Of a stretch of 64,000 bases of DNA, positions 850 through 55,294 are shown in pieces. The notes under the pieces are model-generated. The model made no database searches. It was not told the DNA's origin and saw nothing but the letters and a program-made list of their open reading frames with translations. The translations under genes were made by a program, and so were the position numbers. Numbering within the stretch: the first letter of the stretch is position 1; the number at the start of each line of letters is the position of its first letter. This stretch comes from Eledone cirrhosa (taxonomy: Eukaryota), in assembly GCA_964016885.1 (NCBI GenBank), contig OZ024742.1, positions 96,038,001-96,102,000 of the forward strand. Reading direction: 5' to 3'.

Positions 850-920
850 TATTTTATTATGCGCATTTCAAAAACAAACATCATCAAACAATAATATTTG
901 TGTTTTCATCAGATAAAACA
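850..920 (-). ncRNA. Type I hammerhead ribozyme in a ~180-bp insert (811-990), probable PLE pLTR remnant
   Basis: Minus strand: tgttttat CTGATGA aaacacaaat..atgtttgttttt GAAA tgcgca TA ataaaata. Stem I is 8 bp, stem III is the palindrome ATGCGCAT, predicted cleavage triplet AUA. Confidence 0.75.
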
Positions 921-2412
921 GGAGAACATGATATGAAGGCTAAAAAAACACTTGTTGATAGTGCAGTTTTAAATCAACATATTTTAAATTATATATACAT
1001 ATATATATATATATACATATATATATACATATATATATACATATATATATATATATATATATACATATATATATATATATATATATATACATATATATAT
1101 ACATATATATATATATATATATACATATATATATATATATACATATATATACATATATATACATATATATATACATATATATACATATATATATACATAT
1201 ATATACATATATATATACATATATATATACATATATATATACATATATACATTTATATATATATATATATATATACATATATATATATATATATATACAT
1301 ATATATATACATATATATATATATACATATATATATACATATATATATATATATATATATATATATATATATATATATAAATATAATATATATATAAATA
1401 TATATATATACATATATATATACATATATATATATATACTATATATATATATACATATATATATATATAAATATATATATATATACATGTATATATATAT
1501 ACATATATATACATATATATATACATATATATATACATATATATACATATATGTATACATATATATATACATATATATATACATATATATACATATATAT
1601 ATATACATATATATATATATATATATATATATATATATATATATATATATACATATATATATAGATAATATATATACATATATATATACATATAAATATA
1701 TATATACATATAAATATATATATACATATATATATATATACATATATATATATAAATATATATACATATATATATACATATATATATATATATATATATA
1801 CATATATATATATATACACACACACACACACATATATATATATATATATATATATATATATACATATATATATATATAAATATAAATACATATATATATA
1901 CATATATATATATATATATACATATATATATACATATATATATACATATATATATATACATATATATATATACATATATATACATATATATATACATATA
2001 TATATATACATATATATATATATACATATATATACATATATACATATATATATACATATATATATACATATATATATATATACATATATATATACATATA
2101 TATATACATATATATATACATTTATATATATATATATATATATATATGTAATAATATATATATATATATATATATATACATATATATATACATATATATA
2201 TATATACATATATATATACATATATATATATATATATATATATACATATATATATATATACATATATATATACATATATATGTAAAGTTATATTTAAAAT
2301 TGTTGGGTTACAACTAGTAAATATTTATAACTGATATAAAAGCACTCGACAAATATTTGGAGTATATTTACAATATTAAATAAATGGAAAACTATATTTA
2401 TAAAACCATATC

Positions 2413-2478
2413 TATTTCATTATATATATTTCGGGGATATCATATTAACAATATGCTATGCCTTCATCAGACAAAATA
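2413..2478 (-). ncRNA. Type I hammerhead ribozyme in pLTR-like insert 2281-2531
   Basis: Minus: tattttgt CTGATGA agg..ccc GAAA tatata TA atgaaata. Homologous to 4960, 42588 and 45692. Confidence 0.65.
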
Positions 2479-2825
2479 CAATATAAACAGTTTTATAGAT
2501 AAATATATTCAACATACCGTAATAAACATCAATATATATATATATATATATATATATATATATATATATATATACATACATATATATATATATATACATA
2601 TATATATATATAAATATATATACATATATATATACATATATATATATATATACATATATATATACATATATACATATATATATACATATATATATACATA
2701 TATATATACATTTATATATATACATATATACATATATATATATATATATATACATATATATATATATATACATATATATATATACATATAATATAAGATC
2801 AAAAGATGGTTAAAGGAGTTCAATA

Positions 2826-51412: not shown

Positions 51413-52818
51413 TATCATCATCATCAGGTTTAGCGTCCGTGTTCCACGCTTGCATGGGTTTGGACGGGGGTTTTCCCACTTGAGGCAAGAGTGGTTGTCT
51501 TGCTCGCATAGGACTGTCTGGCGGGTTTTCTACAGTTGGATGCCCTTCCTAACACCAACCACATTTACAGTGTGGGGCTGGGAGGTTTTTACCGTGTTGC
51601 CTACACGGCCACATTACAGCGTGTACTGTCTGGCGGGTTTTCTACAGCTGGATGCCCTTCCTAACACCAACCACATTTACAGTGTGGGGCTGGGAGGTTT
51701 TTACCGTGTTGCCTACACGGCCACATTTACAGCGTGGACTGTGTGTTTTTTTATCGTGACACCTACACGATCTCATTTGTTTCGGCCTGGATGTTGTGGG
51801 ACCAACATAACTTTACATTGAAAGGGGCGGTGTGGATGGGCTGGAGGTGGTGGGACGGGGGGGTGTTTTGATAGAGATGCCTACTGACTGTAGTAGTTTT
51901 TTACTTTGTATTTAGGTAAGGCGGGTCTTCTCTATTACTGAGTACCGCCAAAGGTCTCGGTCCAGTGACATTGTCTTGGAGAGGTGTAAGCGTGTGAGGT
52001 CGGATTTTATCAGCTCGTCCCATGTTTTTCTGGGTCTGCCTACTCCGTGGCTACCGTCTATCTTTATTGCCCTGCACTTTGTTATACAGCTGTCGTCTTT
52101 CATGCGCATCACGTGACCGTACCAACGTAGCCTTCTCTCGAGTAAACAACATCTGATCTCTCTTATTTCTAATTTTTTCCTTGGTTCGTTTATGCTTTGC
52201 CGTTCACGTATATTACTATTGCACATCCAGCGGAGCATGCAAGCTTCGTTCCTCTCTAGTCTGCGTATATCCTCTGCACACAATGCCCAGGTCTCACTGC
52301 CATGCAGCATTGCTGTTCGTATGCAGGCATCGTATAACCTGCCTTTCATTTTTAGGGAGAACCCTCTAGCGGCTAATAGTGGTCTCTGAACTTTTTCCAT
52401 CCAGTTCTGACTCTAGCTACTGTACTTTCAGAGCACCCTCCCCCACTGCTGATTTTGTCACCCAGGTAACGGAACCTGTCCACTATTTCTATAGAACCCT
52501 CTGCGCAGTTGAAGGAGCTAGTATTTTGTGGGCACTTGCTGCTACTTATTGCACCAGAGCACCGGCCACATGTAAAATCTATGTTCTTAGTTAGCTTACC
52601 TGTGATCCCACTACATCTTTTATGCACCCATACTTTGCATTTGGGACATAAAATGGAGTTTCTACCTACGCCTTTCCTACACACTGAGCATGGCCATTTC
52701 CTAGATGGGACTGCCGCCTTATTTTCTTTCCTACAAACTAGAACTTTAGTCTTAGCCAGGTTAATTTTAAGGCCTTTTGATTCTAGGCCGTGCTTCCATG
52801 TTTGGAATTTCTTCTCTA
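51413..52818 (-). mobile_element. RTE family 1 LINE, 5'-truncated; 112-bp tandem duplication in 3' UTR (51513/51625)
   Basis: ORFs 51912-52400 and 52373-52818 match the other copies. Confidence 0.9.
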
Positions 52819-52911
52819 TATGTATATATATACATATTTCTTCTCTATATGTATATATATACATACATACATACATATATATATATATATACATACATAT
52901 ATATATACATA

Positions 52912-55294
52912 CATTTGGTTGGACAATACATGCGTCCCTTTGCGCCTTGTGCGTGAAGGAACACATATCCTATTATTACTACTCTCCTCTATTGTTGAGA
53001 GACAAATTGGGTCGTTCCGACTGCTGCTAGTAATAGTTGCGGCCGGTTTGACCTACCTCCCTCTGCCTCTATCTTTACTTCGGCCCTTGAAAAAATTGAT
53101 TCCACATCATTCACTCTCATCCCAGGAACAGTTTTGGATAGCGCTAGTTCGTAATTTAAATTCAAGAATTTTATGTTCTTCGAATGAAAAGAACCTTCTG
53201 ACGAGAATCTTTCTTTGCGACGAAGGCCGTATGGTCTCCGTTTATTTTTGGGATTCGAAACCGATCGGTAAAGGTAACTATAGTAGGTAAAGTCAATTTT
53301 TTAAAATTTATTTTGAAACTTTTTCATTATTTGCTAAACCTTGTTTATATATGTTCTGGCTCGTTAATTTATTAACCTGCCATTGAACCACATTGGCATT
53401 TGGTTGGACAATACATGCGTCCCTTTGCGCCTTGTGCGTGAAGGAACACATATCCTATTATTACTACTCTCCTCTATTGTTGAGAGACAAATTGGGTCGT
53501 TCCGACTGCTGCTAGTAATAGTTGCGGCCGGTTTGACCTACCTCCCTCTGCCTCTATCTTTACTTCGGCCCTTGAAAAAATTGATTCCACATCATTCACT
53601 CTCATCCCAGGAACAGTTTTGGATAGCGCTAGTTCGTAATTTAAATTCAAGAATTTTATGTTCTTCGAATGAAAAGAACCTTCTGACGAGAATCTTTCTT
53701 TGCGACGAAGGCCGTATGGTCTCCGTTTATTTTTGGGATTCGAAACCGATCGGTAAAGGTAACTATAGTAGGTAAAGTCAATTTTTTAAAATTTATTTTG
53801 AAACTTTTTCATTATTTGCTAAACCTTGTTTATATATGTTCTGGCTCGTTAATTTATTAACCTGCCATTGAACCACATTGGCATTTGGTTGGACAATACA
53901 TGCGTCCCTTTGCGCCTTGTGCGTGAAGGAACACATATCCTATTATTACTACTCTCCTCTATTGTTGAGAGACAAATTGGGTCGTTCCGACTGCTGCTAG
54001 TAATAGTTGCGGCCGGTTTGACCTACCTCCCTCTGCCTCTATCTTTACTTCGGCCCTTGAAAAAATTGATTCCACATCATTCACTCTCATCCCAGGAACA
54101 GTTTTGGATAGCGCTAGTTCGTAATTTAAATTCAAGAATTTTATGTTCTTCGAATGAAAAGAACCTTCTGACGAGAATCTTTCTTTGCGACGAAGGCCGT
54201 ATGGTCTCCGTTTATTTTTGGGATTCGAAACCGATCGGTAAAGGTAACTATAGTAGGTAAAGTCAATTTTTTAAAATTTATTTTGAAACTTTTTCATTAT
54301 TTGCTAAACCTTGTTTATATATGTTCTGGCTCGTTAATTTATTAACCTGCCATTGAACCACATTGGCATTTGGTTGGACAATACATGCGTCCCTTTGCGC
54401 CTTGTGCGTGAAGGAACACATATCCTATTATTACTACTCTCCTCTATTGTTGAGAGACAAATTGGGTCGTTCCGACTGCTGCTAGTAATAGTTGCGGCCG
54501 GTTTGACCTACCTCCCTCTGCCTCTATCTTTACTTCGGCCCTTGAAAAAATTGATTCCACATCATTCACTCTCATCCCAGGAACAGTTTTGGATAGCGCT
54601 AGTTCGTAATTTAAATTCAAGAATTTTATGTTCTTCGAATGAAAAGAACCTTCTGACGAGAATCTTTCTTTGCGACGAAGGCCGTATGGTCTCCGTTTAT
54701 TTTTGGGATTCGAAACCGATCGGTAAAGGTAACTATAGTAGGTAAAGTCAATTTTTTAAAATTTATTTTGAAACTTTTTCATTATTTGCTAAACCTTGTT
54801 TATATATGTTCTGGCTCGTTAATTTATTAACCTGCCATTGAACCACATTGGCATTTGGTTGGACAATACATGCGTCCCTTTGCGCCTTGTGCGTGAAGGA
54901 ACACATATCCTATTATTACTACTCTCCTCTATTGTTGAGAGACAAATTGGGTCGTTCCGACTGCTGCTAGTAATAGTTGCGGCCGGTTTGACCTACCTCC
55001 CTCTGCCTCTATCTTTACTTCGGCCCTTGAAAAAATTGATTCCACATCATTCACTCTCATCCCAGGAACAGTTTTGGATAGCGCTAGTTCGTAATTTAAA
55101 TTCAAGAATTTTATGTTCTTCGAATGAAAAGAACCTTCTGACGAGAATCTTTCTTTGCGACGAAGGCCGTATGGTCTCCGTTTATTTTTGGGATTCGAAA
55201 CCGATCGGTAAAGGTAACTATAGTAGGTAAAGTCAATTTTTTAAAATTTATTTTGAAACTTTTTCATTATTTGCTAAACCTTGTTTATATATGT
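52912..55294 (+). mobile_element. 485-bp hammerhead tandem array (~4.9 apparently identical units), retrozyme-like
   Basis: Period 485 (ORF track starts 53383, 53868, 54353, 54838). HHR at 53193, 53678, 54163, 54648 and 55133. Confidence 0.92.
53193..53275 (+). ncRNA. Type I hammerhead ribozyme of the 485-bp unit
   Basis: acctt CTGACGA gaatct..40 nt..ggattc GAAA ccgatcg GTA aaggt. Palindromic stem III ACCGATCGGT, predicted cleavage after 53270. Confidence 0.88.

What the first reader, a model, noticed from the sequence alone, without database searches (positions are those of the whole stretch)
850..55215. Exceptional hammerhead density: ~25 motifs in ~8 families within 64 kb, next to candidate helper PLEs
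Seen: HHR motifs at 850, 2413, 2826, 3286, 4960, 10995, 11561, 11954, 23568, 26804, 31098, 42588, 45692, six in the 310 array and five in the 485 array, plus degenerate ones at 6313, 19755 and ~23950. Most have palindromic stem III (ATGCGCAT, ATATATAT, AACTAATTAGTT, ACGCGT, ACCGATCGGT). Five PLE relics lie in the same window. Any read-through transcript on either strand would be fragmented. Inference: an ecosystem of autonomous PLEs and non-autonomous ribozyme RNAs.
Basis: partly seen in the sequence, partly recalled or inferred. Interest (0 to 1): 0.72.

Follow-up and report, generated by a model that had tools for sequence, protein, structure and literature searches.

The report
Hammerhead retrozymes bear Penelope insertion footprint
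This stretch of a likely octopus genome holds 24 hammerhead-ribozyme motifs, all inside mobile elements sitting in AT repeats; the crowding is high but matched elsewhere in the genome, and the non-coding repeats share the insertion footprint of Penelope-like jumping genes, which likely copy them.

Summary
All 24 firm motifs are real type-I hammerheads (0 in 100 shuffles). The density is 5.5 times the genome mean (67 motifs in 99 evenly spaced 10-kb samples; about 2x10^5 genome-wide) but not unique. The motifs collapse to 10-12 insertions, about what the window's 19% (AT)n content predicts (13.7), and another 64-kb window holds 32. Families A, B and E are 3' ends of coding Penelope-like elements (PLEs). 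D, F (310 bp) and G (485 bp) are non-LTR retrozymes; C is unassigned. All five local PLEs are broken and intact copies lie elsewhere, so help would come in trans. No RNA run was listed, so cleavage is untested. The new point: retrozymes D, F and G share the PLE insertion footprint, namely (AT)n target, two outward-facing arms, and two fixed 3' ends with one arm taking each (F 10 of 10, D 11 of 11, G 8 of 10). No arm ends at the cleavage site, and private variants are fixed across both arms. This supports the published hypothesis that PLEs copy retrozymes, likely from circles. The scan noted a similar tandem-plus-inverted insert in another genome.

The parts
850..920 (-). Hammerhead family A in a ~170-bp 3' stub of a Hydra-type PLE
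   Evidence: same motif lies behind a GIY-YIG frame with CxCX5C linker in L082
2412..2479 (-). Hammerhead family B, 3' stub of Hydra-type PLE; closing pair of stem II mismatched
2826..2896 (-). Hammerhead family A, second stub; likely part of the local duplication
   Evidence: duplication inferred from its position before the block
3286..3336 (-). Hammerhead family C in a ~580-bp dispersed element; stem III is a hairpin, not a palindrome; parent not identified
4959..5025 (-). Hammerhead family B, duplicate of the 2412 copy (blocks 1279-2555 and 3832-5100, 1242 of 1253 aligned bases identical)
6153..7528 (-). PLE 3' relic (48% to the C-terminus of family E) with degenerate hammerhead at ~6313-6351
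10903..12251 (.). Retrozyme D1 insertion: - arm 10903-11647 (1.3 units, ends at unit position 79), + arm 11671-12251 (ends at 201); hammerheads at 10995, 11561, 11954
14804..18256 (+). Broken Hydra-type PLE with inverted pLTR; two hammerhead-like motifs with U4-to-C core (14889 -, 18010 +)
19673..22793 (-). Broken PLE (decayed Zn-finger linker of Neptune/Nematis type) with degenerate hammerhead at ~19755-19791
23315..23700 (+). Retrozyme D2 fragment with hammerhead 23568-23650
26578..31360 (+). PLE family E (Neptune-type linker), frame broken into three pieces, inverted pLTR on the left; hammerheads 26804 (-) and 31098 (+)
39006..42782 (+). Broken Hydra-type PLE whose 3' pLTR carries hammerhead B at 42587-42654
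42841..44898 (.). Retrozyme F array, 310-bp unit: - arm 4.4 units ending at unit position 139, + arm 2.2 units ending at 165; six hammerheads
45563..45836 (-). Family B 3' stub with hammerhead 45691-45758
52912..55294 (+). Retrozyme G array, 485-bp unit, 4.9 identical units ending at unit position 82-84; five hammerheads

Best explanation
The window is a pile-up of 10-12 insertions of hammerhead-bearing elements into (AT)n microsatellite, made of 3' ends of coding Penelope-like elements and of non-coding tandem retrozymes that are likely copied in trans by intact PLE proteins encoded elsewhere in the genome. Shown: motif structure, family make-up, (AT)n junctions, outward-facing paired arms, two fixed 3' ends per family, seamless passage through the cleavage site, near-identity of units within an insertion, and intact PLE frames elsewhere. 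Inferred steps: (1) an array is transcribed, cut by its hammerheads (likely as dimers through the palindromic stem III) and ligated to a unit circle; (2) a PLE GIY-YIG nuclease cuts (AT)n on both strands; (3) each DNA end primes reverse transcription at one of two fixed internal sites of the RNA, which yields the one-sided tail; (4) the RT runs round the circle for 0.1-19 units and the two cDNAs are joined at their 5' ends. PLE-driven insertion I put at about 0.85, the circular template at about 0.55.
For: Footprint, coding PLEs: paired arms take one short and one long end in 17 of 18 classifiable B pairs (11 of 11, 6 of 7 further; 2 pairs unclassified) and 9 of 10 E pairs. Footprint, retrozymes: F 10 of 10 two-arm insertions end at 139 and 165-170; D 11 of 11 at 79 and 201-204; G 21 of 21 loci have an arm ending at 81-84, and 8 of 10 second arms end at 188-193. 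None of 31 G and 24 F arms ends at the cleavage site. Short-read contigs of one sample show loose ATAT ends at the same F positions. Unit distance for G: 0.0007 within arm, 0.0012 across inverted arms, 0.0081 between loci; variants private to a locus are fixed in both arms in L088, L099 and L107; no unit-specific variant is shared between loci. Stem I changes on both sides within families. Intact helpers: E frames of 1226 and 1240 aa; 16 of 101 listed Hydra-type copies have stop-free 745-750 aa frames, one read in full. The tail arises from two internal RT start sites in a purified PLE (PMC11167929); Hydra elements insert in (TA)n (PMC8557442). Circle model proposed in PMC4209133 and PMC7229834.
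Against: No RNA, cleavage or circle was observed. Repeated unit variants at spacings of 8, 4 and 2 units, and one in 5 of 6 units, show that arrays also change after insertion or that templates are mixed. For F the within- and between-locus distances hardly differ (0.0013 vs 0.0023), so F does not discriminate. In vitro, the anole PLE uses uncut RNA and needs no ribozyme cleavage. The window's own E insertion and one B pair have two long ends; two G second arms end elsewhere (41, 125). The (AT)n correction is loose: the downstream 100 kb has 22.6% (AT)n and only 3 insertions, and insertions may lengthen the repeats themselves. No retrozyme unit was matched to a PLE pLTR, so the helper family is unnamed. 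G loci were the top-scoring search hits; F, B and D loci come mostly from the start of one contig.
Confidence: 0.7

Rival explanations
1. Same PLE machinery, but the template is an uncut multimeric transcript of a parent array; long arrays come from later unequal crossing-over, and the ribozymes are passengers.
For: PMC11167929: uncut RNA is the main substrate in vitro. The 2026 preprint proposes local amplification and found cleavage in 1 of 9 dimer elements. Period-8, -4 and -2 variants within arrays.
Against: Frequent locus-private variants fixed in all units of both arms. 5' ends are scattered and no listed 5' junction recurs between loci. Very young F arrays already reach 14-19 units. Cores and stems are kept in three unrelated non-coding families.
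Confidence: 0.25
2. The window is a special local hub in which neighbouring PLEs act as helpers in cis and transcripts are shredded.
For: 24 motifs against a mean of 4.3 per 64 kb; 12 insertions against 3.6, bootstrap P 0.003.
Against: Local PLEs are broken. Flanks are at or below average and other windows equal or exceed it. Every family counted has more than 1,000 exact matches genome-wide.
Confidence: 0.05
3. D, F and G are only truncated tail ends of coding PLEs not yet found, as A, B and E proved to be.
For: A and B first looked non-coding and turned out to be pLTRs. Family C may be of this kind.
Against: Arrays of up to 19 head-to-tail units have no frame between them. No PLE protein hit in 20 G loci; the few hits in 12 F and 30 D locus records were not seen as part of the arrays. 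Both ends of these insertions join (AT)n directly.
Confidence: 0.1

Closest known systems
Metazoan non-LTR retrozymes (Cervera and de la Pena 2020, PMC7229834; Li, Clavereau and Pollet 2026, bioRxiv 10.64898/2026.07.22.740005)
   Same: Type-I hammerhead once per unit, tandem units of 310-557 bp, GC 34-39%, no protein, co-occurrence with PLEs.
   Different: Here the insertions have PLE-like inverted arms, two fixed internal 3' ends and an (AT)n target. The word 'tail' does not occur in the 2026 preprint or in PMC7761336. Expression and circles, shown for coral, mussel and axolotl, are not shown here.
Hydra-clade and Neptune-clade PLEs (Craig et al. 2021, PMC8557442)
   Same: RT then GIY-YIG, CxCX5C or CX2-5CxxC linker, hammerhead in the pLTR, partial tandem and inverted arms, one-sided tail, (TA)n target.
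   Different: Tails here are about 60 nt (E) and about 87-90 nt (A, B), against the 30-40 bp described. Hammerheads have long stem II and 6-10-nt palindromes. Clade calls rest on linker motifs, not on a tree.
Poseidon from Anolis carolinensis, PAc (Frangieh et al. 2024, PMC11167929)
   Same: Two fixed internal RT start sites that define a tail; AT-rich target cut on both strands.
   Different: PAc start sites are not homologous to the cut DNA, whereas here each end shares 2-8 nt with (AT)n. PAc used uncut linear RNA in vitro.

Membership tests
Type I hammerhead ribozyme | Core CUGANGA, GAAA and UH around stems I-III, open end in stem I | tested here: met
   24 of 24 motifs, 0 in 100 shuffles
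Type I hammerhead ribozyme | Stem I kept by compensatory change | tested here: met
   Two-sided changes among 148 distinct motifs from the held loci; the set was filtered for pairing, so this leans towards the structure
Type I hammerhead ribozyme | Paired 10.1-11.1 closing of stem II (G-C in canonical forms) | tested here: inconclusive
   G-C in E and G only; C.A in D, U.U in C and F, A-U or A.C in A and B. A U.U closing is described for an axolotl family with weak activity
Type I hammerhead ribozyme | Score above an Rfam hammerhead model cut-off | tested here: not met
   0 hits at gathering score; the E-value scan was swamped by (AT)n false hits and only 150 of 812 rows were shown
Type I hammerhead ribozyme | Self-cleavage | not testable with these tools
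   Needs in vitro transcription
Non-LTR retrozyme (D, F, G) | Tandem units of a few hundred bases with one type-I hammerhead each | tested here: met
   Periods 310, 485 and ~555/522-542
Non-LTR retrozyme (D, F, G) | No RT or endonuclease in the element; GC under 50% | tested here: met
   tblastn with the window's PLE frames; GC 34-39%
Non-LTR retrozyme (D, F, G) | Dispersed copies at many loci | tested here: met
   Exact matches: F 4177, G 1143, D 4030 and 2454
Non-LTR retrozyme (D, F, G) | Expressed as unit-length linear and circular RNA | not testable with these tools
   No RNA holder listed
Non-LTR retrozyme (D, F, G) | Target-site duplication (when present) | tested here: inconclusive
   All flanks are (AT)n, which hides any duplication
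Hydra-clade PLE (A, B, 14804-18256) | RT followed by GIY-YIG with CxCX5C linker | tested here: met
   Linker in the 750-aa frame of L287 and in the window relic; definition from PMC8557442
Hydra-clade PLE (A, B, 14804-18256) | Placement in the Hydra clade on an RT tree | not tested
   No reference Hydra sequences were fetched
Neptune-clade PLE (E) | RT, CX2-5CxxC linker, C-terminal GIY-YIG, hammerhead in pLTR | tested here: met
   the Pfam hits are below the curated cut-offs, and the linker is shared with Nematis
Neptune-clade PLE (E) | Placement on an RT tree | not tested
   No tree was built

The most novel reading that the evidence does not exclude
Three young retrozyme families in this genome are copied by PLE proteins from unit-length RNA circles. 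Both ends of a cut (AT)n target prime at two fixed internal sites, one each, and the RT rolls round the circle up to about 19 times. The arrays would then be a genomic record of rolling-circle, two-ended target-primed reverse transcription, in a genome with about 2x10^5 hammerheads (about 68 per Mb, roughly 15 times the axolotl figure by a different descriptor).
Probability: 0.5. Interest if true: 0.62.

Novelty: new member of a known kind. Interest (0 to 1): 0.42.

Why it matters
The density claim itself is ordinary for this genome. What matters is that the field still lists as open which RT moves animal retrozymes, what the PLE hammerhead is for, and why PLE insertions have a tail on one side and inverted arms (PMC7229834 discussion, PMC8557442, PMC11167929). 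Here coding PLEs and non-coding retrozymes show one shared footprint with exact predicted RT start sites. The families are very young (0.2-0.8% between loci in the sampled F and G copies) and intact candidate proteins exist. That turns the hypothesis into a defined in vitro test: protein, (AT)n target, linear or circular RNA, and known start positions.

Tried and rejected
Rfam: nothing at gathering score, and the E-value run gave only (AT)n-driven microRNA false hits in the rows shown. DNA search with the F unit returned nothing even for itself (likely because its words are too common); an exact pattern was used instead. No RNA holder listed for F. Laying contigs: one sample behaves as DNA of this organism or a close relative; three other runs hold only traces of E and were not used as evidence of expression or transfer. 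Monomer folding energies of 11 motifs were mostly not better than shuffles (z from -2.0 to +0.65) and were not used. Pure microhomology as the cause of the 3' ends was rejected as sufficient, because units hold other ATAT/TATA words that are not used and F position 165 shares only two bases. An apparent strand bias of B ends (all 11 long ends on +) did not hold: three further pairs are reversed. A parent PLE for C, D, F or G was not found in the held loci. The C count of 27,663 includes related subfamilies with altered cores and is not a count of intact hammerheads. One regular expression for B failed and was redone. The paper on dimeric PLE hammerheads (PMC5785218) is not held; only its title was seen, in a reference list. 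Supplements of the cited papers were not read; those of the 2026 preprint and of PMC7229834 could show inverted or tailed retrozyme copies.
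Full report
Setting. The window is G000:C3:96038001-96102000 of a 3.0-Gb genome. It is AT-rich and crowded with (AT)n runs. The best named homologue of its largest PLE protein is an Octopus vulgaris prediction at 68%, so the host is likely an octopod.

Are the motifs real? Rfam finds nothing at gathering score. I wrote a type-I descriptor in three stringencies, which found 11, 22 and 24 motifs. The last recovers all 24 firm motifs of the finding and gives 0 in 100 block-wise dinucleotide shuffles; the middle one gave a mean of 0.01 in 200 shuffles. 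21 of 24 have a palindromic stem III. Of the degenerate ones, 6313 and 19755 are plausible decayed pLTR motifs, and ~23950 lacks GAAA.

Is the density exceptional? I fetched 99 evenly spaced 10-kb samples, 100 kb on each side and three windows picked from search listings. The samples hold 67 motifs in 55 insertions, that is 4.3 and 3.6 per 64 kb and about 2.0x10^5 motifs genome-wide. The window has 24 motifs in 12 insertions. B 2412 and 4959 lie in a 99% identical duplicated block, and A 850/2826 likely belong to it, leaving 10-11. Uncorrected, 12 insertions is in the top 0.3% (bootstrap, pieces treated as independent). But motif counts rise with (AT)n content (rho 0.49), the window has 19.3% against 5.0%, and proportional scaling predicts 13.7 insertions (P 0.71). 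This relation is loose: the downstream flank has 22.6% and 3 insertions. The picked windows hold 32 motifs in 9 families, 18 motifs in 13 insertions, and 10 motifs in 60 kb; one 14.7-kb stretch holds 28. The flanks hold 5 and 4 per 100 kb. Exact-pattern counts: F 4177, B 13,020, D 2454 and 4030, C-like 27,663, G 1143, E 8022. So the window is upper-tail but not a special hub. For scale, PMC7229834 gives 126,247 motifs for axolotl, about 5000 for mussel and over 6000 for coral, by a different descriptor.

What carries the motifs? E lies in the pLTR of an RT plus GIY-YIG element with a CX4CxxC linker. A lies about 1.2 kb behind a GIY-YIG frame with a CxCX5C linker in L082. B pairs enclose the RT of the family at 39314-41152, and B precedes a complete 750-aa frame with the same linker. 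By PMC8557442 that linker marks the Hydra clade, which inserts in (TA)n and always has a hammerhead. The window's A and B copies are thus 5'-truncated PLE stubs or the 3' end of the local relic. D, F and G are tandem and non-coding. C is dispersed, and no parent was found in 25 loci. All five PLEs in the window are broken. Elsewhere, E has frames of 1226 and 1240 aa confirmed stop-free to the locus edge (a third long frame was inflated by microsatellite), and 16 of 101 listed Hydra-type copies have stop-free 745-750 aa frames.

The insertion footprint. Numbering each unit from its cleavage site: all 21 G loci have an arm ending at 81-84 on (AT)n; of 10 second, inverted arms, 8 end at 188-193, one at 41 and one at 125. 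In F, 24 arms in 14 insertions end at 139 or 164-170, one reading 147 where the alignment likely ran into the repeat; all 10 two-arm insertions have one of each. In D, 11 of 11 two-arm insertions among 16 loci end at 79 and 201-204. Coding elements do the same: B 17 of 18 classifiable pairs, tail about 87 nt; E 9 of 10, tail about 60 nt, the exception being the window's own copy. Paired arms point their 3' ends outward. Contigs of one short-read sample show loose ATAT ends at F positions 139 and about 165-170; it may be the assembly's own source. PMC8557442 describes the tail on one end and the inverted arm as PLE traits, and PMC11167929 shows that the tail is the stretch between two internal RT start sites. 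The retrozymes therefore look PLE-inserted.

Circle or multimer? No G or F arm ends at the cleavage site, arms cross it seamlessly up to 19 times, and 5' ends are scattered; only the window's F minus arm starts at the site, within one base. Among 86 G units the distance is 0.0007 within arms, 0.0012 across inverted arms and 0.0081 between loci, and nine of 21 loci carry private variants fixed in every unit, in three cases in both arms. No unit-specific variant is shared between loci. This fits one monomer read repeatedly. Against it: variants recur at spacings of 8, 4 and 2 units and in 5 of 6 units in four arrays, so later duplication, conversion or mixed templates occur; F is too uniform to discriminate; and the purified anole PLE used uncut RNA. 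I put the circle at about 0.55.

Transcript fragmentation. Untested: no RNA run was listed. Many of these motifs have a non-canonical stem II closing pair and a palindromic stem III typical of dimer-dependent forms. One of nine Xenopus dimers cut in vitro.

What is known. PLE hammerheads and a circle giving more-than-unit copies: PMC4209133 (passages). Non-LTR retrozymes, circles in vivo and PLEs as candidate helpers: PMC7229834 (passages and sections 13 and 17). PLE origin of retrozymes: bioRxiv 10.64898/2026.07.22.740005 (parts 1-3 of 5 and a word search). PMC8557442 passages; PMC11167929 parts 1-2 of 4; PMC7761336, PMC6155905 and PMC13282606 passages, the last an octopus repeat annotation with no mention of ribozymes. 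Seven searches listed no paper on cephalopod hammerheads or on tailed, inverted retrozyme insertions; the library lacks most subscription journals and supplements were not read.

Verdict. Observation largely right, 'exceptional' and 'local helpers' not. New members of known kinds, with a clean footprint that supports and sharpens a published hypothesis. Interest 0.42.

Noticed in passing
runs X1 and X3 on window 44310-44619: Each holds the F unit as one closed 340-nt contig (310+30) with no difference, depth 10-12, while PLE E is present only in patches, mostly at depth 0-4. Run kind is unknown; trace DNA or an RNA circle cannot be told apart.
   Followed up: partly
window 14839-14894 (-) and 18005-18060 (+); L059: Hammerhead with CCGAAGA core (U4 to C) in both pLTR copies of a Hydra-type PLE and in another locus, so a family trait rather than decay.
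   Followed up: partly
window 27189-27273; L288, L291: In E the last 85 nt of the pLTR are joined directly to the start of the coding region; in Hydra-type copies the long end runs on into the frame start. Both show that the ATAT at the long end is templated inside a tandem or circular RNA.
   Followed up: partly
window 58898-58935: About 40-bp stub of retrozyme G inside (AT)n, ending near unit position 80, without the ribozyme.
   Followed up: no
window 25726-25880: Tiny two-armed E insertion with one long and one short end and no ribozyme.
   Followed up: partly
window 23922-24700: Element with internal inverted copies and CTGATGA plus a possible stem II but no GAAA; family not identified.
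   Followed up: no
window 33358-36968 (-): LINE with a 679-aa open frame (RVT_1, E 2e-29), an upstream endonuclease-like frame and C-terminal zinc fingers; RTE-like by recall.
   Followed up: no
window 29-437, 46960-49614, 51418-52809, 55965-58680: Five or more related copies of a LINE with (ATC)n tails and a PHD-like finger, each next to (AT)n.
   Followed up: no
L184-L185 (G000:C1:43.58 Mb): Two F insertions side by side, one with a 308-nt unit fixed in both arms and two variants that recur eight units apart.
   Followed up: partly
L201, L205-L207, L213, L221: An abundant ~650-bp relative of family C keeps stem III and the cleavage triplet but has an altered first core base.
   Followed up: no
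99 genome samples: At least ten further hammerhead families not present in the window, among them one with marked stem I covariation.
   Followed up: no
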